A DNA stretch of 50,586 bases from Minisyncoccota bacterium (GTDB taxonomy: Bacteria; Patescibacteriota; Minisyncoccia; Phycocordibacterales; Phycocordibacteraceae), in NCBI GenBank assembly GCA_041666065.1, contig JBAYHQ010000001.1, forward strand, positions 1 through 50,586. Reading direction: 5' to 3'. Shown here piece by piece: positions 10,676 to 50,586 of the stretch (positions are counted from its first letter, which is position 1; every line of letters starts with the position of its first letter). The notes beneath the pieces are model-generated. The model had not been told where the DNA came from and ran no database searches. It worked only from the letters and a program-made list of their open reading frames with translations. The position numbers and the translations under genes are program-made.

Positions 10676-10684
10676 AGAAACAAG

Positions 10685-10717
10685 AAAACCGCTCGATAAT
10701 CGAGCGGTTTTCTTTTT
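10685..10717 (+). terminator. intrinsic terminator after rpsI
   Basis: A 12-bp perfect stem, AAAACCGCTCGA/TCGAGCGGTTTT, with loop TAA is followed by a T-run. Confidence 0.8.
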
Positions 10718-10830
10718 GTATCCTCGGACTAGCTTTTCGAAGCAAGCATGCTCCGTCACTCGTCCGCGAGTGTCTGGGGGCCAAGCAGTGATCGAAGCGT
10801 CAGCTATCTAATTCTTCCTGATTATAATAA

Positions 10831-10860
10831 TTAGCACCTTCTGTTCTAGGGGTGTATAGT
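10831..10860 (+). promoter_or_regulatory. candidate promoter, possibly giving a leaderless mRNA
   Basis: TTAGCA (10831-10836), an 18-nt spacer and TATAGT (10855-10860) are present. The ATG at 10868 lies 7 nt after the -10 element, and no SD is present. Confidence 0.3.
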
Positions 10861-10867
10861 TTTGGGT

Positions 10868-11803: not shown

Positions 11804-11896
11804 TGTTTTTAAGCCCCTGCAAGAGTAATCCTTGATAAAGGACTACATTATACACTTTCGGAGTACCATTCACGACTATTGTGATAGACTAAGAAC

Positions 11897-12043
11897 ATGG
11901 CAATAAGGACCATGAAAAAGGACAGCGACCTAAATGCTCTTTTGGCTCGTTCAGCTGAGAGTGGTAAATTCTTTGAGAAAGAAGGTTTTACTGATTTGAG
12001 TGATGTAATTAAATACGCCATAAAGAGGAGTGAGGCTAATTAA
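11897..12043 (+). CDS. small hypothetical protein (48 aa), possible antitoxin-like partner
   Basis: Hand-translated as MAIRTMKKDSDLNALLARSAESGKFFEKEGFTDLSDVIKYAIKRSEAN. It ends 5 nt before the next ORF, has no clear SD, and is below the ORF-track size cutoff. Confidence 0.3.
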   Translation: MAIRTMKKDSDLNALLARSAESGKFFEKEGFTDLSDVIKYAIKRSEAN

Positions 12044-12048
12044 GAAAT

Positions 12049-12561
12049 ATGATGATTTGGGCGAATATTTTGCGCAGATTAGATGCGGTGAAATGTCTAA
12101 CGAACCATGTTAGAAGCATCAGAGGTCTAAGTACAAAGGAGAAATCTTCATACTACCGCTCCATCTTAATAATTTTATACAGCATCGTTGAAGGTTTAGT
12201 ATATGAAGTCGTAAAGAAAAATACGACTCCCCCTGATCATGTTTTTGAAAAAATATCTGAGTACACGGATCTTCACAGAATCAACTCATCCGTCCTTGCC
12301 ACTACTTGGGATGTTCTTTTATGTCACAAAAAAAAGATCGATAGAAAAATAAATGATGATGGAGCAACATTCGGACGTTACAATCTTTTTTTACAGCATC
12401 AAGGAGTTATAAATTCAAGGCAATATAAGACATTGGATTGGATTAGAGAAGAAAGAAATAAACTCCATATTCAAGGACTTGCGACTCCCGATATTAATTA
12501 TACTGACGCAAAAGTGAAAAGAACATCTAGGGCAATTAGGTTTCTAGTAAGGAAAGTATAG
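12049..12561 (+). CDS. hypothetical protein (170 aa), weak HEPN-like R-x6-H motif
   Basis: The gene is very AT-rich (hand count: 27% GC for 12301-12360). The product is helical, and the motif IREERNKLHIQG is reminiscent of HEPN Rx4-6H. I cannot assign a family. Confidence 0.5.
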   Translation: MMIWANILRRLDAVKCLTNHVRSIRGLSTKEKSSYYRSILIILYSIVEGLVYEVVKKNTTPPDHVFEKISEYTDLHRINSSVLATTWDVLLCHKKKIDRKINDDGATFGRYNLFLQHQGVINSRQYKTLDWIREERNKLHIQGLATPDINYTDAKVKRTSRAIRFLVRKV

Positions 12562-37073: not shown

Positions 37074-38410
37074 AGCGTCTTGGGGTCTGTCTCTTTTTCC
37101 TCATAGCCGCCGCGGGCGGCACGCTCGTGAACCCCAGTCAGGTATACGCTGACGCAGAAGCAGATCTGCAAGCGCAGATTGATACGAACAACAAGCAAGT
37201 GGAGGCGCTCCGCGCCGAGATAGCCGCGTATCAGAAGGAGCTTGATGCTGTCGGTGCGAAGAAGAGCACGCTGCAATCCGCCATCAACGCACTGACGCTC
37301 TCGCAGAAACAGCTTGCGACGCAGATCAAGGTGACTGAGAGCAGAATCGCTTCGGCAAATTTGCGCATACGCCAACTCTCGCTCTCTATCGGCGATAAGG
37401 AGGCCTCTATCACGGTGAGTCAGAACGCTATCGCGAAACAGATGCGAAGCGTGACCGAGAACGAGGGTAAGCCGCTCATCGTGCGCCTCATCTCCTCCGA
37501 CTCGCTCGGCGAAGCGTGGCAGGAGACCGACCGAGCCATAGAGTTCAACGACGCGCTCTCTGCAAACATACGTGAGCTCCGTGCGGTCCGCGCCGCACTC
37601 GGTGCTGATCGCGACAAGGTGACCGCCGCTAAGGCAGACCTGCTCGCACTCCAGAAAGACCTAAAGCTCCAGAAGCGCTCGGTTGACGCAAGCAAGGCGG
37701 CGCAGACCCAGCTCCTCGCACAGACCAAGAATCAGGAGGCGAACTATCAGAAGCTCATCGCGCAGAAACAGGCGGCAGAGAAATCGTTTGAGCAAGAGCT
37801 TATCAACCTGCAAGGCCAGCTGAACCTCGTCGTGCACCCTAACCTCCTGCCGAAAGTCGGTTCCGGTGTGCTCGCATGGCCCTTTAGCGATGCGTTCATG
37901 TTCAACTGCACCCAACGGAAGAAAGTATTCGGCAATCTCTTCTGCGTCTCTCAATACTTCGGCAACACCGCCTTCTCAACTGCCAATTCGCAGATATATA
38001 ACGGCCACGGACACAACGCTATAGACATCGCTGCGCCTATCGGCACCCCCGTCTATGCGGCTCTCGGCGGGACAGTACTCGCGACAGGGAACACCGACCT
38101 CGTCCGTGGCTGCTACTCCTTCGGCAAGTGGGTCATGGTCACCCACAGCAACGGTCTCTCTACGCTCTACTCCCACCTCTCCGAGATAGACGTCGCGAAG
38201 GGGCAGTGGGTAGGCGCGAAGCAGCTCGTGGGCCTCTCTGGCATGACCGGCTACGCCACCGGCCCGCACCTCCACTTCGGCGTGTACGCGACCGAGGGTA
38301 CGCAGATCATGACGCTGAAGCAGTTCCGCAGCACGAACACCTCCTGTGCGAACGCGACGATGCCGGTCGCGACCCTCACCGCGTACCTTAACCCCCTTTC
38401 GTACCTCTAA
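37070..38410 (+). CDS. M23 family (LytM/EnvC-like) peptidoglycan endopeptidase with coiled-coil N-terminus
   Basis: A signal/TM segment and a long coiled coil precede HNAIDIAAPIGTPVYA and GPHLHFGVY (HxxxD / HxH). Confidence 0.88.
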   Translation: MKRLGVCLFFLIAAAGGTLVNPSQVYADAEADLQAQIDTNNKQVEALRAEIAAYQKELDAVGAKKSTLQSAINALTLSQKQLATQIKVTESRIASANLRIRQLSLSIGDKEASITVSQNAIAKQMRSVTENEGKPLIVRLISSDSLGEAWQETDRAIEFNDALSANIRELRAVRAALGADRDKVTAAKADLLALQKDLKLQKRSVDASKAAQTQLLAQTKNQEANYQKLIAQKQAAEKSFEQELINLQGQLNLVVHPNLLPKVGSGVLAWPFSDAFMFNCTQRKKVFGNLFCVSQYFGNTAFSTANSQIYNGHGHNAIDIAAPIGTPVYAALGGTVLATGNTDLVRGCYSFGKWVMVTHSNGLSTLYSHLSEIDVAKGQWVGAKQLVGLSGMTGYATGPHLHFGVYATEGTQIMTLKQFRSTNTSCANATMPVATLTAYLNPLSYL

Positions 38411-38428
38411 TGGTATAATCCGGCGACA

Positions 38429-39370
38429 ATGGATTTCATCAAGGAATTCGGTCAGCTCGGCAAGCACGACGCCGCTATAGCGGGCGGGAAGGGTGCTTCG
38501 CTCGGCGAAATGACGCAGGCGGGGATCCCTGTGCCCCCAGGGTTCGTCATCCTCTCCGGCGCTTTTGAACATTTCCTTGAAGAGACCGGCCTACATGCCG
38601 AGATTGACGCGACCCTGCACACCGTCTCTCCAAGCGAGATGCACACCGTGGAGCATGCTTCGGAGAAGATACAGGCGCTCATACTCGGCGCGAAGATGCC
38701 GGAGGACATCGCGACTGAAATACAGAAGCTCTTCGCGAAGTTAGATGCCGAGTATGTAGCGGTACGCTCAAGCGCGACTGCCGAGGACTCCGCGAGCGCC
38801 GCGTGGGCGGGTCAACTGGACAGTTTCCTCAACACGACCGACGACACGCTCCTCACGAACGTGCAGCGTTGCTGGGCCTCGCTCTTCACCCCGCGCGCTA
38901 TCTTCTACCGATTTGAGAAAGAGCTCCATACGCAGAAGATCTCGGTCGCGGTGGTGGTGCAGAAGATGGTGCAGAGCGAGGTTTCCGGCATCGCCTTCTC
39001 GGTGCATCCGGTGACCGAGGACTACAACCAGCTCATCATTGAAGCGGGCTTCGGCCTCGGCGAGGCTATCGTCTCCGGCTCGGTCACGCCTGACAGCTAC
39101 GTGGTGGAGAAAGAGCCGCGGCGTATCATAGACAAGAACGTCACGTACCAGAGCCGCGCGCTCTGGCGCGCGGAGAACGGCGGCAACGAGTGGCGTGCTC
39201 TCTCCGAGACAGAGGGCACGAAGCCCGCACTCTCCGACGAGCAGGCGCTTGAGCTCTCCGAGATTATCCTGCGCATTGAACGCCACTACGGCTTCCCATG
39301 CGACATTGAGTGGGCGTACGAGGCGGGGACATTTTTCATCACCCAGTCTCGCCCGATCACCACGCTTGCT
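38429..39370 (+). other. domain: PPDK_N-type ATP-grasp nucleotide-binding domain (only copy in the operon)
   Basis: The domain runs from the start to FITQSRPITT, with the canonical PEP synthase / PPDK / rifampin phosphotransferase N-terminal motifs. Confidence 0.8.
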
Positions 39371-42300
39371 CCGCTCGCGGTAAAAGATGAAGCTGAGTTT
39401 ATCTCCCCAGAGCTCGCGCGTTTTCCACGACAGGATTACGAATTCGTAGGCCGGTGGAAAAGCGATTTGTTCACCGGATATTTTTGGAATTATTGGTTTA
39501 GGAAGGAGATGCTCAAGAAACTCGATTTCTCCGTACCTTTTTCGGGTTCGCTCGGATTGAAAGGCGGCAACACTTTTTATCACAAGCAGGTTGTGCAGTG
39601 GGGTTCGGATGAGATGCAGCGAATGCTTGCGGACCACTTAGAGACGCGTTCAAAGAGATTCAGAGACAGTGCCGAAAAAGATTTTGCAGAACTTCTGAAA
39701 AAGGCTGACTCCTTCGCGGAGAGTATGCCAGACCAAAACAATTTCAAGCAAGTCGTTGATGCGTATCAGGACTTCATGCTGTATTTCCTTACGGCCAATC
39801 TTATAAGCCCTCACTTTGATCCGCTGATTGCTGAGAAAGCAGTTGAGGAAGGCGTGCCCGCCGAAGACGTCGTCAGTCTGATCCCGAAATTCCCTGCACA
39901 GATTGAGACTCAGCATGCGGATGCGAGAAGGCTACTCGGTCTTCTGAAGAAGAAATCACTTGACGCATTACTCGGCGTTGATACAGAGAAACTCGTTATT
40001 GCGATTAACACAGATAAAGAGCTCAAGGGTGAATTTGAAAAACATCTGAAAGAGTTCGGCTGGCTGGAACTGTTGAACTTCGTAGGGGCGCCTCTTTCGC
40101 TGGAACGTCTTTTAGGCCAATTGAAAACGGCGTCGGGGGCAGAACAGGCGCACGAGCACGCCGCTCACGCGTACAAACTCTCCGATGAATTCAAGCACCT
40201 GCTCAAGACTGCGGCAGACATAGGTTTCGTACGTCAAGCGGCGGCTGAGACTTCCTCTATATTCCACTACAAGCTCATCTCGTATCTTGAGAAAACTGCG
40301 CAGGCGCTTGGTCTCACGTATCGGGAAATGCTTAACCTCGTCCCTCCTGAAATTGTCCAAGGATTGAGCGGTGCGAAATCGCACGAGGAACTGAAACGAA
40401 CTGCTGAGAAGAGGGCGGGATATAACTGGCTCGTGTACGGAGATATCGCGACAGAGAGCCTCATTGTCATAGACGAGAAAGAGGATGTGGAGAAGATGTG
40501 CTCGCTCATGATCCCCACTGCAGATGAAGGCGCTGATACGCTCGGCGGACAGATCGGGAACAAGGGGAAGGTGCAGGGGAGGGTAAGTGTGATCATGGCG
40601 TCCGACGATTTTCACAAGTTTGTAGAAGGGAATGTGCTCGTCACGACCATGACGACGCCCGACTTCGTCATCCTGATGCAGAAGTCGGTCGCGATTGTGA
40701 CCGACATCGGCGGCATGCTCTCCCACGCCTCCATCGTCTCGCGCGAGCTAGGGAAGCCCTGTGTCATCGGTACGAAGTTCGCCACGCAAGTCCTCCGCGA
40801 CGGTGACCTTGTGGAGGTAGACGCTGACAGCGGGGTGGTGCGCATATTGGAGCGCACAGGGTCGAGCCCTGCTGTGCTCGTCGACCCAGATAAGGAATTG
40901 CTCATTATGAGAGACCGGCCGTCAATGTTGTCTCCTGTGTACTGGAATCAAGTCCTTCAGATTAGCGATGAAGTAAAAGAGATATACGGTGATGTTCTAA
41001 GTACCGAATACACGACTCATTCAAACGGGAGAATGAGCTCGGTAATGATAAAGAATGAATGGAATAGGGTTGGGGATTTCATAGCAAACAAAATAGTAGA
41101 TAGTGAAGAATACTTTAAGAAAATTGTGCGGAAGACGGAAGAATCTAAAAAGCACATTCAGTCTTTTTTAAAAGAAATAGCTGAAGAGAATTTAGAGAAT
41201 CTTAACTTTGACGAGCTGACTAAAAAAGTCGAGACGATTAGGGACCTGTTTTTTGAATACGATGCTGCCAGTGTGTTCGCTTGGTTTGTCGCTGGAGATC
41301 AAATTAAACAGAAGATTGATTCAATTCTCAAGTTATCAAAAGAAGATTTGGATATACTCTCTCTTCCCAAAGAAAGAACCTTTGCCTCTCAAATGGAGCA
41401 AGAGGTTTTAGAGGTGGCTGTTGCTACTTCAAAAGATATTGAAAAAGAAGCTGAGAAGTTAGAAAAACGATTCTATTGGATTCTTTTTGGTTATGACGGT
41501 CCAACGGTGTGTGATAAAAATTATTTCATTGAGCAGATACAGATGCATCGAAAAGAAATGTCTGAGACAAGAAAAAGACTTGCTGAAATCAAGAGTACTG
41601 AAAATGATATTAGAGACAAAAGAGAAATAATTATAAAAAGGGAGAGCTTCACAGAAGCCGACGAACGTCTCATAGATATTTTGCGCCGCATTACTACTTG
41701 GACCGACGAAAGAAAGATGTTGGATTTCCAACTCTTCTACCATCACAATAGAGTCCTGACTTCTATAGGCTCAATGTTTGGAGCCTCTATTACGCAGATG
41801 AAGTATCTTTTCACCCACGAATTAAGAGGCCTTAAGGAAAAACACAAAGAGCTACTGATTGAAGCCGATAAGCGTATACAGAATGATTTTATTGTCATAA
41901 GTCATGGGGACACCTTAAGGATAGCCTCCGATGAGGAGAAGGCTCTCTTCAAGAAAGTGATAGATGCCCAACTCAAACATACCGAGGTAAAAGGCAACGT
42001 GGCTAGTGCCGGCCCCCAGAAGACATATCGTGCTGTAGCGAGAGTATTGCTGTCTCCAGCCGAGTGCTCAAAGGTCAAGGGTGGAGAAATAATGGTGGCA
42101 ACAATGACTACGCCGGACTATGTTCCTGCCATGAGAAATGCTCTTGGTTTCATAACTGATGAGGGTGGAGTCACGTGTCATGCTGCTATTGTTGGGCGCG
42201 AAATGAATAAACCATGCATTATAGGGACCAAGGTAGCCACCAAAATCCTAAAGGATGGCGATTTCGTGGAGATGGACGTTAATAACGGTGTGGTGCGTAT

Positions 42301-43414
42301 ATTGGAGCGGACAGGGGATGCGGCGATAAAGAAAAGTCTGGTGTGGAATCCTCAAGCGGCGAATAGCACTGTCATCGAGCAGATAGAAAGCACTGATTGG
42401 CGTCAGGACTGGTCAGACGTATACAGCACCATTGAGGCGTCCTTAGACATAGATTCGTATTTCGGCGTATTTGAGAAAGTCTGTGGGACAAGCTTCTCCA
42501 GCATAATGCTTATCTTTGACGGGGACACGACGGTCTGCTGGAGCCCCACTAACGAGTCTGAGGAGCTTGGGACGCATCTGGTACAGAAAATGCTTGATCC
42601 TGTATTCCTCAAGCAGTGGGTCGCCGCATACAAGTCTCACGCTGACACTCTTACTGAGTTCGTTAAGTTGCCGTTTGACGAGTTTCTCAAACGTCTCCCT
42701 GAATATAAAGAGAGGTACCCTTACCTCGCCCCGCACGTCATCGGTACGAAAATAGCTTTTAATCTATTGCCGATGGGGCACGAGGATGTCGCTGCGGAGC
42801 TTGAGGCGGCGCGTCGGTACACCGAGATGTTCTACAAGAATTCCACGCACGTCATGAACGAGTTGTGCGCGCACATCGCGAAAGAGAAGGGATACAGTTT
42901 GAAATCGATACGTGCCTTGTCGGTAGATGAGCTCTGTGAGTACGGTCAGACTGGCGTGCTTCCTGAGGAGAGTGTGTTGGAGGCACGGTCTGCTATAAAG
43001 GGCATCTATCTAGAGAAGGGGCGGCAGCATACGCTATCTGCCGACGATGTCTCCGACATACAGAAATCATGGCAGACGAGCGTGGAAGGCGACACTTTGA
43101 AAGGTGCGAGTGCTTATCCGGGCATCGTAAGGGGCGTATGCCGTGTGGTCATAGACTATCGTACTGCATCAGTAGATGACGGGGAGGTGCTTGTAGCGAC
43201 CATGACCGACCCGCGATTTGTTCCGTTCATGAAGAAGGCGGCGGCCATAGTGACTGATGGCGGTGGTATGCTCTCGCACGCGGCCATCGTCGCGCGCGAA
43301 CTCAAAGTGCCGTGCGTCGTGGGGACGAAGCTCGCGACACAAGTCCTCCATGACGGCGACCTCGTGGAGGTAGACGCTGACAGCGGGGTGGTGCGCATTC
43401 TGGAAAAAAAATAA
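38429..43414 (+). CDS. 1661-aa tri-modular PpsA/RPH-like phosphotransferase: PPDK_N ATP-grasp domain + three (helical domain + phosphohistidine swivel) modules, no PEP/pyruvate TIM barrel
   Basis: The N-terminus has GGKGASLGEM, VAVRSSATAEDSASAAWAGQLDSFLN and FITQSRPIT (PPDK_N). Three swivel domains carry TTMTTPDF..IVTDIGGMLSHASIVSRELGKPCV, ATMTTPDY..ITDEGGVTCHAAIVGREMNKPCI and ATMTDPRF..IVTDGGGMLSHAAIVARELKVPCV. Confidence 0.85.
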   Translation: MDFIKEFGQLGKHDAAIAGGKGASLGEMTQAGIPVPPGFVILSGAFEHFLEETGLHAEIDATLHTVSPSEMHTVEHASEKIQALILGAKMPEDIATEIQKLFAKLDAEYVAVRSSATAEDSASAAWAGQLDSFLNTTDDTLLTNVQRCWASLFTPRAIFYRFEKELHTQKISVAVVVQKMVQSEVSGIAFSVHPVTEDYNQLIIEAGFGLGEAIVSGSVTPDSYVVEKEPRRIIDKNVTYQSRALWRAENGGNEWRALSETEGTKPALSDEQALELSEIILRIERHYGFPCDIEWAYEAGTFFITQSRPITTLAPLAVKDEAEFISPELARFPRQDYEFVGRWKSDLFTGYFWNYWFRKEMLKKLDFSVPFSGSLGLKGGNTFYHKQVVQWGSDEMQRMLADHLETRSKRFRDSAEKDFAELLKKADSFAESMPDQNNFKQVVDAYQDFMLYFLTANLISPHFDPLIAEKAVEEGVPAEDVVSLIPKFPAQIETQHADARRLLGLLKKKSLDALLGVDTEKLVIAINTDKELKGEFEKHLKEFGWLELLNFVGAPLSLERLLGQLKTASGAEQAHEHAAHAYKLSDEFKHLLKTAADIGFVRQAAAETSSIFHYKLISYLEKTAQALGLTYREMLNLVPPEIVQGLSGAKSHEELKRTAEKRAGYNWLVYGDIATESLIVIDEKEDVEKMCSLMIPTADEGADTLGGQIGNKGKVQGRVSVIMASDDFHKFVEGNVLVTTMTTPDFVILMQKSVAIVTDIGGMLSHASIVSRELGKPCVIGTKFATQVLRDGDLVEVDADSGVVRILERTGSSPAVLVDPDKELLIMRDRPSMLSPVYWNQVLQISDEVKEIYGDVLSTEYTTHSNGRMSSVMIKNEWNRVGDFIANKIVDSEEYFKKIVRKTEESKKHIQSFLKEIAEENLENLNFDELTKKVETIRDLFFEYDAASVFAWFVAGDQIKQKIDSILKLSKEDLDILSLPKERTFASQMEQEVLEVAVATSKDIEKEAEKLEKRFYWILFGYDGPTVCDKNYFIEQIQMHRKEMSETRKRLAEIKSTENDIRDKREIIIKRESFTEADERLIDILRRITTWTDERKMLDFQLFYHHNRVLTSIGSMFGASITQMKYLFTHELRGLKEKHKELLIEADKRIQNDFIVISHGDTLRIASDEEKALFKKVIDAQLKHTEVKGNVASAGPQKTYRAVARVLLSPAECSKVKGGEIMVATMTTPDYVPAMRNALGFITDEGGVTCHAAIVGREMNKPCIIGTKVATKILKDGDFVEMDVNNGVVRILERTGDAAIKKSLVWNPQAANSTVIEQIESTDWRQDWSDVYSTIEASLDIDSYFGVFEKVCGTSFSSIMLIFDGDTTVCWSPTNESEELGTHLVQKMLDPVFLKQWVAAYKSHADTLTEFVKLPFDEFLKRLPEYKERYPYLAPHVIGTKIAFNLLPMGHEDVAAELEAARRYTEMFYKNSTHVMNELCAHIAKEKGYSLKSIRALSVDELCEYGQTGVLPEESVLEARSAIKGIYLEKGRQHTLSADDVSDIQKSWQTSVEGDTLKGASAYPGIVRGVCRVVIDYRTASVDDGEVLVATMTDPRFVPFMKKAAAIVTDGGGMLSHAAIVARELKVPCVVGTKLATQVLHDGDLVEVDADSGVVRILEKK
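40541..40861 (+). other. domain: swivel (PEP-utilizers mobile) domain 1, His codon 40724-40726
   Basis: LGGQIGNKGKVQGRVSVI...GGMLSHASIV...DGDLVEVDADSGVVRILERTG. Confidence 0.85.
41987..42316 (+). other. domain: swivel domain 2, His codon 42179-42181
   Basis: VKGNVASAGPQKTYRAVARVL...GGVTCHAAIV...DGDFVEMDVNNGVVRILERTG, encoded in AT-rich DNA. Confidence 0.85.
43097..43411 (+). other. domain: swivel domain 3, His codon 43277-43279
   Basis: LKGASAYPGIVRGVCRVV...GGMLSHAAIV...DGDLVEVDADSGVVRILEKK. Confidence 0.85.
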
Positions 43415-44701
43415 ATGGAAAAACTCTCTTGGCTTTCTTCAAAAGAAGGTGCTGATGTGCGTACTATCATCACTCACTTCTGGGACACGCTCTCCACTAA
43501 AGCGTATCCAGTAACTAAGGGTACGATGCGCGTCCCTATCTCTCTTGAGCCTTTCACTCTCTCGCGCGAAGAATATGAGAACCTTAATAAAAATCTGCTT
43601 CTGGTTATTTCGGCGGCACGGAAACTTGCCGAACACTATTTTACCGACCAAGACTTGCAGACGATATTTAGCCTCAATGCAGCCGAAGTTGGTTTGATTG
43701 AAGCCTCAAAGGACGAACCGTTTGTGGGAATCGTGAGAGCCGACCTCTTCTATGGCGCTCAACCGAAGTTGGTGGAACTTAACACCGATTTCCCCGATGG
43801 GTTCTTCATGCATGATGTGACCGCGCAGACTATTCAAGATCTCCTGCCGGCACACTACGAGACTAACTCAAACGCCGCGCTATTTCAGAGACTGCTTGAA
43901 TCAGCAGGAGTTAGTAAGCAAGACCATATTTTCATTGGCTATGATAAAGGCAGGAAGTTCATAGACGAATTCGCCCTAACGCAACGTACGCTAGAAGGGC
44001 AGGGGTGGAAGCGTGTAAGTTACGGCGCTATTGAAGATTTGGAATATCGAGATGGTGTCTTTTATTGGAACGATGAACCGGTACAAGTCATCCGGCGTGG
44101 CGTGGAGACTTCAAAAATGCGCGCGAATACAGAACTCTTGGCGAATATCACGCGGGCACAGCGAGATTCTGGACTTAAGGTAATCAACAACTTCAAGATG
44201 CGCCTGCTTGGGCACAAGTCCCTTCTGGCGGCACTCTGGGACACGCGATTTGAAAAATATATGAGCGACGAGGAACTCGGAGCGGTTAAGTCTCTCGTCC
44301 CCGAAACATTGAAGTTGGAAACGGCAGGTTTGGAGAAAATATCCATAGAAAAAGATGGGTGGGTACTAAAGCCCTCCGACCTTACTGAGGGCGAAGGTGT
44401 CGTCATAGGCTCTGCATGCAGCGCCACCGAGTGGTCGGCGAGTATTGAAGAAGCACTCAAGAATCCGCGAGCGTGGCTTCTGCAACGCAAGGCAGATATT
44501 CCTAAAGACACGTTCTCCCTGTTCAACGCTGAGACCGGCGAGACCCACTCGTCGGAGATGAGCTACGATCTAGATCCGCATATCGTCCTGTTTAGAGACC
44601 ACGCCGAAATGGGCAATATGCTCGTGCGATTCTCCCCGTCGGAGATACTGAACGTCATGAAAGGCGGCGGTTTAACCTACGCTTTCGTAGGAGTAGAATA
44701 A
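43415..44701 (+). CDS. ATP-grasp ligase of the glutathionylspermidine-synthase-like / circularly permuted type-2 ATP-grasp group
   Basis: VGIVRADLFYGAQPKLVELNTDFPDG resembles the R-x-D...K-L-x-E-x-N-x-D-x-P signature of GspS-like amidoligases. GWVLKPSDLTEGEGVVIG is an ATP-grasp strand-loop motif. The ATG directly follows the TAA of the giant ORF, in the same frame. Confidence 0.6.
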   Translation: MEKLSWLSSKEGADVRTIITHFWDTLSTKAYPVTKGTMRVPISLEPFTLSREEYENLNKNLLLVISAARKLAEHYFTDQDLQTIFSLNAAEVGLIEASKDEPFVGIVRADLFYGAQPKLVELNTDFPDGFFMHDVTAQTIQDLLPAHYETNSNAALFQRLLESAGVSKQDHIFIGYDKGRKFIDEFALTQRTLEGQGWKRVSYGAIEDLEYRDGVFYWNDEPVQVIRRGVETSKMRANTELLANITRAQRDSGLKVINNFKMRLLGHKSLLAALWDTRFEKYMSDEELGAVKSLVPETLKLETAGLEKISIEKDGWVLKPSDLTEGEGVVIGSACSATEWSASIEEALKNPRAWLLQRKADIPKDTFSLFNAETGETHSSEMSYDLDPHIVLFRDHAEMGNMLVRFSPSEILNVMKGGGLTYAFVGVE

Positions 44702-44707
44702 ACATCT

Positions 44708-45835
44708 ATGGCTGACAAAGAGATTCTTTCTGTTGATTGGCAGCTCTGGATACAGCGGAAAGGGCTAGATATCTTCAGCGTCAGCCTATTCCATATAGAA
44801 GAAGAGGGGCTTCTGCGCGCTGTCATCGGTGGCGGCACTTCAAAGCAGCTCTGTGTCTGCGAGGGCGATGATTATCTGTTTATTCGCTCAACAAGCGACT
44901 TTGCGCAGATGTATAACGACATCGCGGCGTTCATCCGTAAGCAGCCCCTCGGATATTTTGAGAAAGTATTTGAGAAAGCTCGCACGATGCCTGAGGTGAC
45001 CCGCGATCTCATCAAGCGAGTTTCTGGCTATTCCGACACTGAAGTGGTAGAGAACTTCCAAAACATCACTGACGATATCATGGCCGTCATTCTCTATAAC
45101 ACCTCTATTCCGTATTTCTTGCTGTCAACGCTGGAGACGCACGCTGATATACCGCCGGCTCACTATGACCTTCTCATGCGAGAGTCTGAGAAATTGCGCG
45201 CGACATCGCTCTTCCATGACCTCATGACCTCTGTGTACGGGAGGATATTTGATGTGTTATCGCGCCGTTTCGGAGTGGAGAGGGCCCATGCCTCATTCCT
45301 CTCGGTAGAAGAAATGGCCGACATGGTAAACGGGAAAGCCGCCGCGCCAAGCGCGAATGAGCTCGTCGCACGAGAGAAGTGTGTCGTGTGGATGGACAAA
45401 ACGCAGAACAGGACGCTCTTCTCCTACGACGAAGGGCTTCGCGAAGAAATAAAAGAACGGGTGTGGAATCAGCTTAAGCCAAGAGTGGACGCTAGTGGAG
45501 CATCGCTGCTGAAAGGGAATACCGCCTTCGGCGGCAAGGTGTCGGGGGCTGTGAAGATCGTCACCTCTGCCGCCACCATGGCCAAGATGGCCAGAGGAGA
45601 CATCCTCGTCGCCCACACTACGAACCCAAGCTTGATGCAGGCTATCTCGCTCGCAGGTGCAATAGTGACCGATGAGGGCGGTATCGGCTGTCATGCCGCT
45701 ATCGTCGCCCGCGAGCTGAAAGTACCGTGCATCATCGGGACACGAATCGCGACTCAAGTCCTCCACGACGGCGATATGGTTGAGGTAGATGCCAACAACG
45801 GAGTGGTTAGGATAATAAAGGGAATTGTTACATAA
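44708..45835 (+). CDS. stand-alone module: about 267-aa helical domain + C-terminal phosphohistidine swivel domain
   Basis: The C-terminus reads LLKGNTAFGGKVSGAVKIV...AHTTNPSLM...IVTDEGGIGCHAAIVARELKVPCIIGT...DGDMVEVDANNGVVRII. The swivel spans about 45509-45826 and the His codon is 45692-45694. Confidence 0.8.
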   Translation: MADKEILSVDWQLWIQRKGLDIFSVSLFHIEEEGLLRAVIGGGTSKQLCVCEGDDYLFIRSTSDFAQMYNDIAAFIRKQPLGYFEKVFEKARTMPEVTRDLIKRVSGYSDTEVVENFQNITDDIMAVILYNTSIPYFLLSTLETHADIPPAHYDLLMRESEKLRATSLFHDLMTSVYGRIFDVLSRRFGVERAHASFLSVEEMADMVNGKAAAPSANELVAREKCVVWMDKTQNRTLFSYDEGLREEIKERVWNQLKPRVDASGASLLKGNTAFGGKVSGAVKIVTSAATMAKMARGDILVAHTTNPSLMQAISLAGAIVTDEGGIGCHAAIVARELKVPCIIGTRIATQVLHDGDMVEVDANNGVVRIIKGIVT

Positions 45836-46662
45836 TGAGGAGCATGGGAAAATTTGAGAAATTGGCATCTGCCGGATACTTAGATAAAACTCGCGAACAA
45901 AGCGCCCGTAGGAGCATAAGTTCTGAGGAGTACCAAGATTTGGAAAAGAAGATGTCTTCGCGTCTTACCGACCAACCATGGGAGAAAGAGGGGAGTATGA
46001 GATTCTCTATTAAAGGGGAGGGCGAAGACGCTCTCCCCACCTCATTTTCTATAGAATACGACTCAGAGAGCACCCCTGAGTTAGAAAAATATCGCCACCA
46101 AATACGCGGATGGACGCCGGATGACGACATGGACGACATGGTGACCATAAATATGGGTACGTTTAGGAGGATTAAGGACTTAAGGATTGAGCATGCCGGA
46201 AATAAATTTGATATGCGAGCGGCAGTTAGGAATCTGGACGTTTATACCTACATCGGGAACGAACCTCGCAAGCAAGTCATAATCAAAGGCCAACATGGTG
46301 TGTATGGTCTTCGTTCTCGCCACGCAGAGATTATCTTCACTACATTTGACCCGACCTCTATCTTCGGACTTATGGTATTACTCCATGAAATAGGGCATGA
46401 AGTAAAAGAGTCAGCCTACACAATAAAAGAGAGCGGCTTTAAGAAGCAAAGCGGCGCAAAGATTGAAAATGGTGAGGCTACGACTGTCGCCGAAAAAGTA
46501 AGCCTGATTGAAAACGAAAGATCAGCTGATGCTTTCGCATTACACACACTGTACCGCCTGATGGGCAAAAATGTTGATATGACCAAGATAAATAAAATAT
46601 TCCATTCTGGGCAGTCTGGAGCTCAGGGGAGACTAAAGTGGAGTCCTGATGCAAAGCTGTGA
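45835..46662 (+). CDS. hypothetical HExxH protein (putative zinc-dependent hydrolase/peptidase)
   Basis: LLHEIGHEV (HEIGH at 46384-46398) is followed by ENERSADAF, which could supply a Glu ligand. GC is lower (hand count 43% for 46141-46200). The start overlaps the previous stop (TAATG). Confidence 0.5.
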   Translation: MRSMGKFEKLASAGYLDKTREQSARRSISSEEYQDLEKKMSSRLTDQPWEKEGSMRFSIKGEGEDALPTSFSIEYDSESTPELEKYRHQIRGWTPDDDMDDMVTINMGTFRRIKDLRIEHAGNKFDMRAAVRNLDVYTYIGNEPRKQVIIKGQHGVYGLRSRHAEIIFTTFDPTSIFGLMVLLHEIGHEVKESAYTIKESGFKKQSGAKIENGEATTVAEKVSLIENERSADAFALHTLYRLMGKNVDMTKINKIFHSGQSGAQGRLKWSPDAKL

Positions 46663-46684: not shown

Positions 46685-47704
46685 ATGGAGAAAATCGTAT
46701 TGCAGAAGAATTACTCGCGAGACTTCACGCTCATATTGGAACAGTTGTGGGTGGGCGCTTTCAAGCGGAACATCAAAGCCGAGTACGGTTTTGAAACGCC
46801 CTATCCACCATACGTGGTGCTACATGTGACAGACGAAAATCTGGAGATATGGGAGCACGAGAAGGCTATTGGCTCTTTTCAAGATTGGCTACTGGAGAAG
46901 AATACTGTGAGCACCGATTTCCTGCGGCAGATAGTACGCGAGTACGAAGACTTGATGGCGGTAATAGAGGGCCACTGGAAGAGGGGCGGCACGAAAGATC
47001 TTGAGACTATCGCGGAGTATCTAGCAGCCTCGGAAAAAGCGGTAACACTCTTCTGTATCTGGTACTACTCGTGTATAGACGAACGGACGCCGGAGACGGC
47101 GCAAGCGATCGCTCGTCCGCTCCGCGAGAAGGACGAGTTCTTCGCGAAGAACGACAAGCACATCAAGGACTGTGTCGTGGCTCTCGGTGGGAAGCGGGAA
47201 CTGGCAAATCTTATCCTGCTCTCAGAATTCCCGAACATTCCGAGTGAGGAGACGCTCCGAGCCCGCACGAGTGGCGTCGTGGTCGTAGACGCCGACGAGG
47301 TATTCTTCTCTCCGCTTCCACAGTTCGCTGCGGAGCACCCAGAATACGTATTTGAAGATTTACAGCCGATCACCGAGACTCCCAAAGAGCTTTCAGGAAG
47401 TATCGCCTACAAGGGCTCGGTCACGGGGAGGGTACGGGTTGTGAAGAACGTGCGCGCGATGGATGGCGTCCACGATGGCGACATCATCGTGTCGCCCATG
47501 ACCACACCAGATTTCATAGCGGCGATGCGGAGAGCGGCAGCATTTGTGACCGATGAAGGCGGCATTATGTGCCACGCTGCCATCGTCGCGCGGGAGATGA
47601 AGAAGCCCTGCATCACGGGTACAAAGTTCGCCACGCAAGTCCTCCGCGACGGCGATCTTGTGGAGGTGGATGCCGATAGGGGAGTCGTACGGATATTGAA
47701 ATAG
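46685..47704 (+). CDS. stand-alone module: about 235-aa helical domain + C-terminal swivel domain
   Basis: The C-terminus reads LSGSIAYKGSVTGRVRVV...SPMTTPDFI...FVTDEGGIMCHAAIVAREMKKPCITGT...DGDLVEVDADRGVVRIL. The His codon is 47573-47575. Confidence 0.8.
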   Translation: MEKIVLQKNYSRDFTLILEQLWVGAFKRNIKAEYGFETPYPPYVVLHVTDENLEIWEHEKAIGSFQDWLLEKNTVSTDFLRQIVREYEDLMAVIEGHWKRGGTKDLETIAEYLAASEKAVTLFCIWYYSCIDERTPETAQAIARPLREKDEFFAKNDKHIKDCVVALGGKRELANLILLSEFPNIPSEETLRARTSGVVVVDADEVFFSPLPQFAAEHPEYVFEDLQPITETPKELSGSIAYKGSVTGRVRVVKNVRAMDGVHDGDIIVSPMTTPDFIAAMRRAAAFVTDEGGIMCHAAIVAREMKKPCITGTKFATQVLRDGDLVEVDADRGVVRILK

Positions 47705-49430: not shown

Positions 49431-50586
49431 TGGCATATAAACTCATAGAGAAGTTCAAGAAGATCATCGGGAGCGACCCTGTCGTGGTTATCCACGCCTC
49501 TATCTCGCCCCTCTTTATGAATGTCGCATGGAGTCGCGGCGAACACCCGATACCCTCGCTCTCCTTAGTGAGAGGCCGCGACAATTACATCTCTTTCAAC
49601 GAGAGGCGTTACTTCGCGCTCGCGACGGATATGTTTCGTCGGTATTACGAAGGGAAGGTAAGTATTGAAGAACTTGAAGACAGGTACCGCGAATACGAGA
49701 GGCATGCCCAAGAGATGTACGACGAAGTGACCCGCACAGACCTCGGAGCACTATCAGACGATGAGCTGAAGGCGTATATGGACAGGATTGACGGTCTCTA
49801 CACCGAGCTTCTAGACACCATTTATATAGAGACCATAGACTACGACAAGATACTTTCCGTCATCGGTGCTGAACACCAACAAGAACTGGATAAGGTATGG
49901 GAGAAGGCGACACAGCCGACCTTCGTGTCTTTTGAGGGACGGTACCTGCGCAACATGACCGATCTTGTGTCCTCAGGTCAGGAGGACACTGTCCGAGAGG
50001 CACGGTTTATGTTTACCGACTATTCATGGACAAAAAGTAGTGATGAGATCATAGCCGCTCTTGCTGCAGTACGAGACAGCTTAGACGAAAAGAGACGAGA
50101 AGTAGAACGGCTCTATGCTGAAGCCAGGGCCAAGGAAGAGGTGTTCTCGGCGTGGGAGGACACGCTCAGCCCTCGTGCGCGGCGTATCGCAGCCTATACG
50201 CAGATGGTGATGTGGATGCGCGATGCGAGGAAAGACCCTATCGCGCAGATGCTCGCGGTGCTCGTAGAAATCGCGACTATCATGACCAAGCGCGCCGACA
50301 TAGAGCTCCGCCACGCTCCATTTATCCAATTCCACGAGTGCGTGAAGGGCGTGGAGCACCTCAAGCAGATGAAAGCGCATATTGAGGCGCGAGAGGAGGG
50401 GAGCGTCTATCTCGCGCACCCTGACAAGACGTACGAGATAGAGCATCGCGATTTTGAAGAAGCCTTGGCCGAGTTCAACGAATGGACGATGCCGCAGGCA
50501 CACGAGTCGTCCGAACTCCGAGGTCAGATCGCCTGTCGTGGTCAAGTGCGCGGCATCGTACGGGTAGTATCTGACCCCCATGACGA
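49430..50586 (+). CDS. stand-alone module (partial, runs off window): at least 362-aa helical domain + start of a swivel domain
   Basis: It is not in the ORF track because it is open-ended. Hand translation gives MAYKLIEKFKKIIGSDPVVVIHASISPLF...VMWMRDARKDPIAQM...ELRGQIACRGQVRGIVRVVSDPHD with no stop. The last 24 aa match the N-terminal strand of the other swivel domains. Confidence 0.75.
   Translation, partial: MAYKLIEKFKKIIGSDPVVVIHASISPLFMNVAWSRGEHPIPSLSLVRGRDNYISFNERRYFALATDMFRRYYEGKVSIEELEDRYREYERHAQEMYDEVTRTDLGALSDDELKAYMDRIDGLYTELLDTIYIETIDYDKILSVIGAEHQQELDKVWEKATQPTFVSFEGRYLRNMTDLVSSGQEDTVREARFMFTDYSWTKSSDEIIAALAAVRDSLDEKRREVERLYAEARAKEEVFSAWEDTLSPRARRIAAYTQMVMWMRDARKDPIAQMLAVLVEIATIMTKRADIELRHAPFIQFHECVKGVEHLKQMKAHIEAREEGSVYLAHPDKTYEIEHRDFEEALAEFNEWTMPQAHESSELRGQIACRGQVRGIVRVVSDPHD

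What the first reader, a model, noticed from the sequence alone, without database searches (positions are those of the whole stretch)
40900..42750. Sharp compositional mosaic inside the giant ORF: module 2 is encoded by AT-rich DNA
**Seen in sequence.** My hand counts of 60-nt lines give 63% GC at 40741-40800, at the end of swivel 1. They give 33% at both 41041-41100 and 41101-41160. By eye, the AT-rich character persists through swivel 2 (41987-42316) and GC returns to a high level around 42.75 kb. The reading frame is maintained throughout.

**Inference.** A complete [helical domain + swivel] cassette from a low-GC donor was inserted in frame between modules 1 and 3. That means the modules behave as transferable cassettes. 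The HExxH gene (45835-46662, 43% GC in 46141-46200) shows the same foreign signature.
Basis: partly seen in the sequence, partly recalled or inferred. Interest (0 to 1): 0.62.

Follow-up and report, generated by a model that had tools for sequence, protein, structure and literature searches.

The report
Foreign AT-rich cassette inside a giant kinase gene
A 1.4-kb AT-rich block inside a 1661-residue multi-module kinase gene of a tiny groundwater bacterium is a real, in-frame, repeat-flanked insertion of one "substrate-binding plus phospho-carrier" cassette whose composition and nearest relatives point to a lower-GC donor, so these enzymes appear to gain specificities by swapping whole modules.

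Summary
The 900-nt window 40951-41850 has 37% GC in a 56.1% GC genome (SD 3.4), which ties for the lowest in the genome.

GC3 segmentation splits the ORF into five pieces that follow domain borders:
- ATP-grasp, 0.79
- helical 1, 0.55
- swivel 1, 0.81
- module-2 block (40886-42223), 0.41
- remainder, 0.64

The right-hand break lies near 42.2-42.3 kb, inside swivel 2, not at 42.75 kb.

The block is not an assembly artefact. Two groundwater runs and an independent 325-kb contig carry it at flat depth.

- The nearest relative of the ORF (P0164, syntenic locus) runs ATP-grasp, module 1, module 3. One alignment gap falls exactly opposite window residues 810-1299.
- A 27-nt direct repeat encoding VVRILERTG (25/27 identical) flanks the 1455-nt unit.
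- Module-2 codon usage anticorrelates with the host genome (r = -0.24; null 0.76). Its GC1/GC2 match a homologue from a 44% GC contig.
- It is sister to standalone genes, one from a 35% GC contig, and no module-2 type occurs in 40 related genomes.

No donor above 65% identity was found. The HExxH gene shares the foreign signature.

The parts
38429..39364 (+). PPDK_N ATP-grasp domain of the giant ORF (aa 1-312); GC3 0.79, codon usage typical of the host
   Evidence: Pfam PF01326 E = 2.7e-96; GC3 segment; RSCU r = 0.77 with the host genome; 83% aa identity to P0164
39365..40537 (+). Helical (RIF-binding-like) domain of module 1; GC3 0.55
   Evidence: GC3 segment; module-1-type homologues follow the ATP-grasp domain in P0164, P0169 and G003; 54-60% identity to P0194
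40538..40861 (+). Swivel 1, the phosphohistidine carrier (TDIGGMLSH, His766); GC3 0.81
   Evidence: Pfam PF00391; GC3 segment
40835..40861 (+). Left copy of the 27-nt direct repeat (encodes VVRILERTG) that bounds the inserted unit
   Evidence: Two matches in the window, none expected by chance; 25/27 identical to the right copy
40862..40894 (+). GC-rich 11-codon linker (SSPAVLVDPDK) between swivel 1 and the start of homology to standalone module-2-type genes
   Evidence: Sequence; P0001 homology begins at LLIMRDRPS
40895..42289 (+). AT-rich module-2 cassette: RIF-binding-like helical domain 2 plus the body of swivel 2 (TDEGGVTCH, His1251). For the 40886-42223 block, GC is 0.40 and GC3 is 0.41.
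   Evidence: composition; codon usage r = -0.24 with host; homologues and trees; model pLDDT 93.4, best PDB match RPH-Lm
42290..42316 (+). Right copy of the 27-nt direct repeat (VVRILERTG)
   Evidence: nucleotide identity between swivel 1 and swivel 2 rises from about 50% in the body to 25/30 in the last alignment window, which overlaps this repeat
42317..43414 (+). Module 3 (helical 3 plus swivel 3, His1617); GC3 0.64. Corresponds to the second module of P0164.
43364..43398 (+). 35-nt word at the 3' end of swivel 3, exactly identical to 40811-40845 at the 3' end of swivel 1
   Evidence: it is also the branch point of the k=31 unitigs in both sequencing runs
45835..46662 (+). HExxH gene with non-host composition; part of a gene block absent from the syntenic P0164 locus
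   Evidence: GC 0.453, GC3 0.48; RSCU r = -0.10 with host and +0.41 with a 33% GC contig; absent from 24 congeners; not present in L024

Best explanation
The giant ORF encodes a rifampin-phosphotransferase-like dikinase: one ATP-grasp domain followed by three modules, each made of a helical substrate-binding domain and a swivel phosphohistidine domain.

The AT-rich block is module 2. I conclude it was acquired laterally as a module-2-type cassette of a kind that elsewhere exists as a standalone gene of about 478 aa. It was inserted in frame between module 1 and module 3 by recombination at the conserved 3' end of a swivel-coding segment, which left a 27-nt direct repeat (VVRILERTG) on both sides. 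Its composition is that of a gene equilibrated in a genome of roughly 40-45% GC, with little amelioration since.

Shown:
- the compositional breaks
- that the block is physically real
- the empty-site architecture in the nearest relative
- the flanking repeat
- the discordant phylogenetic affinities
- the RPH-like fold

Inferred:
- the direction of the event (gain here rather than loss elsewhere)
- the recombination mechanism
- the functional consequence, namely that the insertion adds a further substrate specificity to a phosphoryl relay in which one ATP-grasp domain charges several swivel histidines in cis, and charges the standalone modules in trans, as in two-component dikinases
For: Composition:
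- 37% GC against a genome mean of 56.1% (SD 3.4).
- GC3 0.81 to 0.41 to 0.64, with breaks on domain borders that are stable over penalties; Fisher p = 4e-15 and 4e-11.
- GC1, GC2 and FYMINK/GARP amino-acid usage shift too.
- RSCU correlation with the host is -0.24 (null windows 0.76, SD 0.10, minimum 0.04) but +0.27 to +0.50 with CPR contigs of 33-44% GC.
- GC1/GC2 of 0.478/0.321 equal those of the P0003 homologue (0.479/0.322) from a 44% GC contig.

The block is physically real:
- One X1 unitig spans 40816-42887.
- X2, a different study and year, carries 40965-42442 with no differences.
- Depth is flat in both runs.
- An independent 325-kb JGI contig is 99.977% identical over 22,158 nt.

Empty site:
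- P0164 (ATP-grasp 83% identical; about 200 nt of upstream sequence before the ORF start also align at 74.8% nucleotide identity) aligns colinearly with the window ORF, with one gap opposite residues 810-1299.
- With module 2 removed in silico, identity is 53.9% over 1142 columns.
- The P0164 junction 'ILKRAE-DGGLKK..TDWHSDW' matches the window's 'ILERTG-DAAIKK..TDWRQDW'.
- Flanking repeat at 40835-40861 and 42290-42316.

Affinities:
- 132 full-length module-2-type homologues exist. Module 2 is sister to P0001 + P0018 (100/96 under LG+C20).
- P0001 lies on a 35% GC contig as a standalone gene after a standalone PPDK_N gene.
- The AU test rejects grouping with P0128 (p = 0.002), although the ATP-grasp of P0128 is 74% identical to the window's.
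- No full-length module-2 type was found in 24 congeners or 16 same-order genomes.

Not a family-wide habit: the multi-module ORFs of G018, G003, P0128 and P0164 are each compositionally uniform.

Function:
- The module-2 model has pLDDT 93.4 and its best PDB matches are RPH-Lm 5FBT/5HV1 (E = 5e-14, TMq 0.55-0.57).
- All 23 invariant family residues, including the swivel His, are present.
- Two-component RPH-like dikinases work in trans (PMC12167813).
Against: - No donor or near-identical relative was found. The best match is 49% aa identity over the full length and 65% over the C-terminal 275 aa, and there is no nucleotide-level match in relatives. Recency rests on composition alone.
- The empty-site comparator is only 54% identical, so loss in its lineage is not formally excluded.
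- P0128 and an archaeal protein (P0122) also place a module-2-type module directly after a first swivel. That adjacency has therefore arisen more than once or is old.
- Helical 1, which is shared with relatives, also has low GC3 (0.55). The ATP-grasp domain and swivel 1 are unusually high (top 1-2%). So not all of the heterogeneity is explained by one insertion.
- There are no mobility genes in the operon.
- The left junction runs through a 35-nt exact repeat, and only k=31 unitigs, not raw reads, could be inspected.
Confidence: 0.74

Rival explanations
1. Module 2 is ancestral at this position. P0164's lineage lost it, and the mosaic reflects uneven GC enrichment within the gene. For example, GC-biased gene conversion or stronger codon selection in the conserved ATP-grasp and swivel segments could raise their GC, while the divergent helical domains stayed AT-rich.
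For: - Swivels tend to have slightly higher GC3 than their helical partners in 8 of 11 modules of this genome, and also in G002.
- The ATP-grasp domain and swivel 1 are above the genome norm.
- Helical 1, shared with relatives, is also low at 0.55.
- Exact words of 29-35 nt shared by swivel 3' ends suggest gene conversion among swivels.
- P0128 and P0122 also have a module-2 type in second position.
Against: - In module 2 the swivel is low as well (0.46), unlike most other modules.
- GC1, GC2 and amino-acid usage are shifted to the values of homologues from 35-44% GC genomes. Enrichment at synonymous sites would not produce that.
- Codon usage is anticorrelated with the host.
- No module-2 type occurs in 40 relatives.
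- The tree and AU test separate module 2 from P0128, whereas the ATP-grasp domains are close.
- A direct repeat flanks the unit.
Confidence: 0.14
2. Metagenome assembly chimera: the AT-rich block belongs to a co-occurring low-GC organism and was joined in through conserved swivel k-mers.
For: - The left junction lies in a 35-nt repeat that is a branch node of the k=31 graph.
- Many AT-rich swivel-bearing contigs of other organisms co-occur in the same runs at higher depth.
Against: - One unitig runs from within swivel 1's 3' end (40816) through the whole block into module 3 (42887).
- Depth is the same on both sides in two runs from different studies and years: 6.5/7.0/7.7 in X1 and 8.2/7.5/7.8 in X2.
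- An independent assembly gives a 325-kb contig with the identical gene.
- The reading frame and all conserved family residues are intact.
- The alternative path through the repeat would leave module 2 plus module 3 as an orphan circle.
Confidence: 0.03
3. The AT-richness is functional and selected in place, for example as an internal promoter, for translational pausing between modules, or to lower expression of downstream modules. On this view it is not a trace of history.
For: The block sits in the middle of a very long ORF. AT-rich DNA readily yields promoter-like sites. This was not tested beyond composition.
Against: - Relatives' multi-module ORFs show no such internal AT-rich block.
- The shift extends over 1.3 kb and over all codon positions and amino-acid usage.
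- The block coincides exactly with a separable homology unit that is absent from the nearest relative.
Confidence: 0.04

Closest known systems
Rifampin phosphotransferase (RPH; PDB 5FBT, 5HV1) and the wider RPH/PRK06241 family of small-molecule dikinases
   Same: - ATP-grasp PPDK_N domain.
- Helical substrate-binding domain followed by a C-terminal swivel His domain with the T-x-x-G-G-x-x-x-H motif.
- The module-2 model superposes on the RIF-binding plus swivel part of RPH-Lm (E = 5e-14, TMq 0.55-0.57).
- The likely chemistry is ATP to His to small-molecule acceptor (PMC4844700, PMC12167813).
   Different: - RPH has one substrate domain and one swivel in about 860 aa. Here three modules are fused behind one ATP-grasp domain, and at least four more modules are separate genes.
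- Identity of the helical domain to RPH is only 17-19%.
- NCBIfam RPH models score far below their cut-offs (465 against 999).
- The substrate is unknown.
Two-component dikinases HpeHI, CreHI and phenylphosphate synthase PpsAB
   Same: The ATP-grasp protein is separate from a [substrate-binding + swivel] protein, and phosphotransfer works in trans (PMC12167813). This matches the standalone modules in this operon and the split layout around P0001.
   Different: - Those systems pair one ATP-grasp protein with one acceptor protein and act on phenolics.
- Here many divergent acceptor modules share one ATP-grasp domain.
- Membership by sequence was not tested.
Mosaic genes built by module-level lateral exchange (for example NRPS/PKS module swaps, mosaic penicillin-binding protein genes, polymorphic-toxin C-terminal cassette replacement); comparison from general knowledge
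   Same: An in-frame foreign segment with donor-like composition, bounded by conserved sequence that can serve as a recombination substrate. Module order is shuffled between relatives.
   Different: - The exchanged unit is a complete acceptor module of a phosphoryl relay, that is, substrate domain plus its own phospho-carrier.
- The hosts are ultrasmall-genome bacteria and, for the family, DPANN archaea.
- I found no description of this in the searched literature.
PEP synthase / pyruvate phosphate dikinase
   Same: The ATP-grasp and swivel domains are homologous. The genome also has a genuine 807-aa PEP-synthase-like gene on C13. The giant ORF even exceeds the NCBIfam NF005057 cut-off (641.5 against 598), because one ATP-grasp stretch and three swivel stretches add up.
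   Different: There is no PEP/pyruvate-binding TIM-barrel domain; Pfam finds only PF01326 and PF00391. Automatic names such as 'phosphoenolpyruvate synthase' are therefore misleading.

Membership tests
RPH-type small-molecule dikinase (PRK06241 / RIF_Ptrans_rph) | N-terminal PPDK_N ATP-grasp domain | tested here: met
   PF01326 E = 2.7e-96, aa 17-320; PDB RPH chains E = 3e-82 over aa 3-319
RPH-type small-molecule dikinase (PRK06241 / RIF_Ptrans_rph) | Swivel phosphohistidine domain with the conserved T/S-x-x-G-G-x-x-x-H motif | tested here: met
   Three PF00391 stretches; motifs at aa 758, 1243 and 1609; His invariant in the 55-sequence alignment
RPH-type small-molecule dikinase (PRK06241 / RIF_Ptrans_rph) | RIF-binding-like helical substrate domain between the ATP-grasp and swivel domains | tested here: met
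   The module-2 AlphaFold model (pLDDT 93.4) matches RPH-Lm 5FBT/5HV1 best, E = 5e-14, TMq 0.55-0.57. Only module 2 was modelled.
RPH-type small-molecule dikinase (PRK06241 / RIF_Ptrans_rph) | Three-domain, single-acceptor architecture and a score above the curated family cut-off | tested here: not met
   1661 aa with three acceptor modules; NF041857 scores 465 bits against a cut-off of 999; NF004878 scores 523 against 945
RPH-type small-molecule dikinase (PRK06241 / RIF_Ptrans_rph) | ATP-dependent phosphorylation of rifamycins | not testable with these tools
   This needs an enzyme assay. Identity of 17-19% in the substrate domain gives no basis for predicting the substrate.
PEP synthase / PPDK | C-terminal PEP/pyruvate-binding TIM-barrel domain (PF02896) | tested here: not met
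   No PF02896 match in the giant ORF or in any operon gene
Laterally acquired gene segment | Base composition and codon usage unlike the host genome | tested here: met
   Lowest 446-codon GC3 window in the genome; RSCU r = -0.24 against a null of 0.76 ± 0.10
Laterally acquired gene segment | Patchy distribution: absent from close relatives, and an empty site in the orthologous locus | tested here: met
   No full-length module-2 type in 40 relatives. The syntenic P0164/L024 locus has module 1 directly followed by a module-3 type.
Laterally acquired gene segment | Phylogeny discordant with the neighbouring segments of the same gene | tested here: met
   Module 2 is sister to P0001 + P0018 (100/96). 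The AU test rejects grouping with P0128 (p = 0.002; the group was chosen after seeing the tree). The ATP-grasp domain is closest to P0164 and P0128.
Laterally acquired gene segment | Identified donor or near-identical foreign copy | tested here: not met
   Best match 49% over the full length and 65% over the C-terminal half; no nucleotide-level hit in relatives
Laterally acquired gene segment | Junction signature (flanking direct repeats) or mobility genes | tested here: inconclusive
   A 27-nt direct repeat flanks the unit, but it also encodes a conserved swivel end. There is no integrase or transposase in the operon. A serine recombinase lies next to the P0001 array in another organism.

The most novel reading that the evidence does not exclude
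The [substrate-binding + swivel] modules may form a horizontally shuffled 'specificity cassette' pool shared among ultrasmall symbionts, meaning CPR bacteria and DPANN archaea. The conserved 3' ends of the swivel-coding segments would act as built-in recombination sites, so one ATP-grasp 'charger' can be re-equipped with new acceptor modules by plug-in insertion, fusion and fission. That would be a combinatorial way to diversify a phosphotransfer repertoire in genomes too small to evolve it by duplication. Module 2 would then be one caught-in-the-act event.
Probability: 0.3. Interest if true: 0.78.

Novelty: new variant of a known kind. Interest (0 to 1): 0.58.

Why it matters
- **Scale in a tiny genome.** This 669-kb genome carries at least 13 swivel domains but only two ATP-grasp domains. 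The work shows at nucleotide resolution how such an array grows. A whole acceptor module entered an existing ORF in frame, next to a conserved segment that recurs at every module boundary.
- **A testable evolutionary model.** The result suggests that RPH-like dikinases, a family that includes antibiotic-inactivating enzymes, acquire new substrate specificities by module exchange. It also points to gene flow among co-occurring groundwater CPR, and possibly DPANN.
- **Annotation.** These proteins are auto-named 'PEP synthase' although they lack the PEP-binding domain.
- **Genome-scan methods.** Intragenic GC3 segmentation that coincides with domain borders is a cheap pointer to module-level transfer.

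Tried and rejected
- **Family-wide AT bias.** I considered that helical domains are always AT-rich and swivels GC-rich. This is rejected as the main cause: the multi-module ORFs of G018 (3114 aa), G003 (1997 aa), P0128 and P0164 are each compositionally uniform. Only a mild trend of swivel above helical exists.
- **Assembly chimera.** Rejected on unitig continuity, equal depth in two runs and an independent 325-kb contig.
- **Recent exchange with sampled relatives.** A blastn search of the whole ORF against 40 relatives found at most 76% identity, and only in the ATP-grasp and swivel segments. Nothing was found in the helical domains.
- **Scan of genome contigs with the module-2 protein.** It found only two irrelevant swivel hits, because a single-protein query reaches close relatives only.
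- **Search for an empty-site allele in JGI metagenome contigs.** I used an in-silico join of the two flanks and got 0 hits. The occupied junction, which is known to exist in a JGI contig, also gave 0 hits.
- **C19 as the continuation of C1.** Rejected. The 420 nt beyond the window end in L021 match C19 only at 77%, which is a paralogous swivel.
- **P0194's neighbourhood.** P0194 is 60% identical to module 1, but its DNA could not be fetched, so the type of its downstream 462-aa module is unknown.
- **Literature.** Searches found no paper on multi-swivel RPH-like arrays in CPR or DPANN. One resistome survey lists rph-like hits in CPR (PMC8651080).

Full report
**Setting**

The window is contig C1 of an assembly of 668,790 bp in 42 contigs, with 56.1% GC and an estimated completeness of 97.75%. 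Sequencing runs that hold the locus are groundwater metagenomes. The genome size, the 0.4-1.0 Mb sizes of its relatives and the names attached to homologues (Nealsonbacteria, Komeilibacteria, Moraniibacteria, Paceibacterota) point to a CPR/Patescibacteria bacterium. This is an inference; no taxon name was available.

Upstream of the finding lie ordinary core genes: AsnS/AspS-type and GltX tRNA synthetases, an M17 peptidase, FtsW, MurG and an M23 peptidase.

**The gene**

One ORF, 38429-43414 (1661 aa), encodes a PPDK_N ATP-grasp domain (aa 17-320, E = 2.7e-96) and three PEP-utilizers 'swivel' domains. Each swivel is preceded by a helical domain of 260-400 aa. Downstream genes encode:
- a GSP-synthase-like ATP-grasp protein
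- three standalone [helical + swivel] proteins
- an HExxH protein
- a DUF5674 protein
- a further module that runs off the contig

The genome holds 13 detectable swivel domains but only two PPDK_N domains. One of those two belongs to an ordinary 807-aa PEP-synthase-like gene.

Yes. Across the genome, 900-nt windows have mean GC 0.561 and SD 0.034. The window 40951-41850 has 0.37, equal-lowest among 4226 windows.

In frame, GC3 drops from about 0.8 to 0.28-0.44 over codons 850-1075. GC1, GC2 and amino-acid usage shift as well: FYMINK rises to 0.30-0.43 and GARP falls to 0.08-0.20.

A maximum-likelihood segmentation of GC3 gives the same five segments at three penalties:

| Codons | Domain | Window coordinates | GC3 |
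|---|---|---|---|
| 1-312 | ATP-grasp | 38429-39364 | 0.79 |
| 313-703 | helical 1 | 39365-40537 | 0.55 |
| 704-819 | swivel 1 | 40538-40885 | 0.81 |
| 820-1265 | helical 2 plus most of swivel 2 | 40886-42223 | 0.41 |
| 1266-1661 | end of swivel 2 plus module 3 | 42224-43411 | 0.64 |

Adjacent contrasts are highly significant (Fisher p from 4e-15 to 3e-7).

Genome-wide, gene GC3 has mean 0.655 and SD 0.072. Against that background the module-2 block is lower than every 446-codon window sampled from the genome's ORFs, helical 1 is in the bottom 3.5%, and the ATP-grasp domain and swivel 1 are in the top 1-2%.

The gene is a patchwork, not one island in a uniform background.

**Is it an artefact?**

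Logan unitigs of two runs, X1 (2018) and X2 (2022, a different study), carry the block with no differences. One X1 unitig runs from 40816, inside the 3' end of swivel 1, to 42887 in module 3. Depth is flat across the junctions, at 6.5-7.9 in X1 and 7.5-8.2 in X2.

The only ambiguity is a 35-nt exact repeat, 40811-40845 = 43364-43398, which forms a branch node at k = 31. The alternative path through it would leave module 2 plus module 3 as an orphan circle.

An independent JGI assembly has the same gene on a 325-kb contig, 99.977% identical over 22,158 nt. I rate the chimera explanation at about 3%.

**What the block is**

A model of aa 812-1296, built with 54 homologues, has mean pLDDT 93.4. 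Its best PDB matches are the RIF-binding plus swivel part of rifampin phosphotransferase from Listeria monocytogenes (5FBT and 5HV1; E = 5e-14, TMq 0.55-0.57). So a 'module' is the acceptor half of an RPH-like dikinase. All invariant residues of the family, including the swivel histidine (His1251), are present.

The block belongs to a recognisable subfamily, which I call the module-2 type. It has 132 full-length homologues in the searches, in three forms:
- most often a standalone protein of about 478 aa
- an approximately 795-aa protein fused directly to an ATP-grasp domain
- part of a multi-module protein, including some labelled Nanoarchaeota or 'archaeon'

**Where module 2 comes from**

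Five lines of evidence agree.

1. **Codon usage.** The RSCU correlation of the block with the rest of the genome is -0.24. Host windows of the same length give 0.76 ± 0.10, with a minimum of 0.04. The block correlates positively (0.27-0.50) with contigs of 33-44% GC that carry its nearest homologues.

2. **Codon-position composition.** Its GC1/GC2 (0.478/0.321) equal those of the P0003 homologue from a 44% GC contig (0.479/0.322). Its GC3 (0.41) lies between the homologues from 44% GC (0.30) and 43% GC (0.47) contigs. The ATP-grasp domain of the same ORF is at 0.61/0.42/0.79. The block looks like a gene equilibrated at roughly 40-45% GC.

3. **Distribution.** No full-length module-2 type exists in 24 same-genus and 16 same-order genomes. 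The best match there is 34% identity over the C-terminal half.

4. **Phylogeny.** Module 2 sits in a database clade with 100/99 support, far from the genome's own modules. It is sister to P0001 + P0018, with SH-aLRT 99 in a 81-row LG+G4 tree and 100/96 under LG+C20+F+G4. P0001 is a standalone gene on a 35% GC contig. There it follows a standalone PPDK_N gene and lies near a serine recombinase and a ParE-like toxin gene.
   An AU test rejects joining module 2 to P0128 + P0026 (p = 0.002; the group was chosen after seeing the tree). Yet the ATP-grasp of P0128 is 74% identical to the window's, while the ATP-grasp protein next to P0001 is 67% identical. Neighbouring parts of the ORF therefore have different affinities.

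5. **An empty site.** P0164 (1498 aa) is the closest relative of the ORF. Its ATP-grasp domain is 83% identical, and its aa 1-794 match window aa 1-809 at 56%. About 200 nt upstream of the ORF start (38231-38428) also align at 74.8% nucleotide identity, and its next gene is the 64%-identical counterpart of the window's 49430 gene.
   In a global alignment, one long gap falls opposite window residues 810-1299. With module 2 removed in silico, the two proteins are colinear, at 53.9% identity over 1142 columns. The junctions correspond:
   - P0164: '...VVRILKRAE-DGGLKK...TDWHSDW'
   - window: '...VVRILERTG-DAAIKK...TDWRQDW'

**Junction anatomy**

The unit 40862-42316 is 1455 nt, or 485 codons. 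It is bounded by two copies of a 27-nt sequence encoding VVRILERTG, at 40835-40861 and 42290-42316. The copies are 25/27 identical, with no matches expected by chance.

Nucleotide identity between swivel 1 and swivel 2 is 43-55% through the body and rises to 25/30 in the last alignment window, which overlaps the repeat.

After the left copy comes a GC-rich 11-codon linker. The AT-rich sequence then starts where homology to the N-terminus of standalone module-2-type proteins begins.

This pattern is what a single crossover in the conserved swivel 3' end would leave, or an equivalent microhomology-guided join. That mechanism is an inference.

Other multi-module proteins reuse the same linker at their internal junctions. 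P0125, for example, has 'ILKKANGSPCDIELAKE..' three times, which suggests repeated accretion at this point.

**Cassette behaviour in relatives**

I classified the helical domains of relatives against the window's modules. This gave the following orders:
- P0164: ATP-grasp, module 1, module 3, 46685-type, then a separate 49430-type gene
- P0150: ATP-grasp, module 3, 46685-type, 47707-type
- G003: ATP-grasp, module 1, 47707-type, C11-type, then one unclassified module
- G018: seven modules in yet another order
- P0128: ATP-grasp, 49430-type, module 2
- P0171: ATP-grasp, 46685-type, one unclassified module, module 1

The window's operon is colinear with P0164's backbone plus three extra blocks:
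- module 2
- ligase + 44708 module + HExxH
- 47707 module + DUF5674 + 109-aa ORF

The extra genes tend to have lower GC3 (0.41-0.62) than most backbone parts (0.55-0.81).

The HExxH gene has GC3 0.48 and RSCU r = -0.10 with the host. It has no counterpart in 24 congeners.

A second whole-cassette outlier exists on contig C19 at 10340-11854, with GC3 0.45 in the helical domain and 0.44 in the swivel.

**What remains unexplained or weak**

- No donor was found. The best identity is 49% over the full length and 65% over the C-terminal 275 aa, the latter to P0193 on a 33% GC contig.
- The comparator for the empty site is distant.
- Helical 1, which relatives share in the same position, also has low GC3. 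The ATP-grasp domain and swivel 1 are unusually GC3-rich. Some additional process, such as gene conversion among conserved segments or further replacements, must contribute to the patchwork.
- A module-2 type directly after a first swivel also occurs in P0128 and in an archaeal protein.
- X2 contains strain 'bubbles' in other parts of the operon. One example is two alleles of 42413-42608 that differ at 15 sites. None were seen in module 2. This shows that short-tract recombination is active in the operon, but it does not date the insertion.

**How it most likely works**

This part is inferred from the RPH and two-component dikinase literature (PMC4844700; PMC12167813):
1. The ATP-grasp domain binds ATP.
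2. A swivel histidine is phosphorylated.
3. The swivel carries the phosphoryl group to a small-molecule acceptor held by its own helical domain.

With three fused modules and several standalone ones, a single ATP-grasp domain would charge several carriers in cis and in trans. Inserting module 2 would then add one more acceptor specificity without disturbing the others. The substrates are unknown.

**Verdict**

The interpretation, an in-frame insertion of a laterally acquired [helical + swivel] cassette with modules behaving as transferable units, is supported at about 0.74 confidence.

The phenomenon is a new variant of a known kind, namely mosaic genes built by module-level lateral exchange, in an apparently undescribed multi-acceptor RPH-like system of ultrasmall prokaryotes (literature searches).

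Noticed in passing
window 10862-12558: This is a second low-GC island, at 37-42% GC with GC3 0.32-0.36, the lowest-GC3 genes in the genome. It encodes an SDH-type ClpP-like serine protease (PF01972, E = 1.4e-12) and a small protein with a weak HEPN RiboL-PSP match. It looks like an acquired accessory or defence-like pair.
   Followed up: partly
G000 contig C19:10340-11854 (minus strand): Another standalone [helical + swivel] module is low in GC in both of its domains (GC3 0.45 and 0.44, FYMINK 0.30). It may be a second foreign cassette in the same genome. Contig C19 carries five swivel domains in tandem.
   Followed up: partly
window 38429-39364 and 40538-40885: The ATP-grasp domain and swivel 1 have GC3 0.79-0.81, in the top 1-2% of the genome and higher than typical core genes (0.655 ± 0.072). 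In the alignment shown, the swivel-1 region looks far more similar to P0194 than the helical domain does (54%). This is unexplained. Gene conversion or replacement from a GC-richer relative is possible.
   Followed up: partly
window 40811-40845 and 43364-43398: A 35-nt exact repeat lies at the 3' ends of swivels 1 and 3, within segments that are otherwise 74% identical. Swivel 1 and the swivel at 47471-47704 share 29 of 30 positions in one alignment window. Both assemblies break or branch at these words.
   Followed up: yes
window 42413-42608, 43057-43175, 43603-43718 (run X2): Strain-level 'bubbles' appear in run X2: short tracts with 7-10% divergence between identical flanks in module 3 and the ligase gene. 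One example is two 196-nt unitigs at depth 11.2 and 3.7 that differ at 15 sites. This suggests short-tract recombination in the natural population. None were seen in module 2.
   Followed up: partly
P0122, P0126, P0152, P0173 (database proteins): Multi-module proteins of the same family are labelled Nanoarchaeota, Woesearchaeota, Micrarchaeota or 'archaeon'. The ATP-grasp domain of the Woesearchaeota-labelled protein (P0152) is 71% identical to the window's, and that of the Nanoarchaeota-labelled one (P0122) is 63% identical. The family appears to be shared between CPR bacteria and DPANN archaea.
   Followed up: partly
L011:12898-13776, L024:6183-6752: A histidine-phosphatase-family gene (weak His_Phos_1 match) lies next to the module arrays in two unrelated contigs. 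In L011 a serine recombinase and a ParE/YafQ-like toxin gene follow it.
   Followed up: no
window 38429-43411 (annotation): The giant ORF passes the NCBIfam 'phosphoenolpyruvate synthase' equivalog cut-off (NF005057, 641.5 against 598 bits) only because one ATP-grasp stretch and three swivel stretches add up. It has no PEP-binding domain, so automatic naming will be wrong.
   Followed up: yes
window 50429-50586 and L021:22000-22578: Both this assembly and the 325-kb JGI contig end within or just after the swivel of the 469-aa module gene. The genome therefore has at least one more swivel than the 13 detected, and the array is an assembly breakpoint. Contig C19 is not the direct continuation.
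   Followed up: yes
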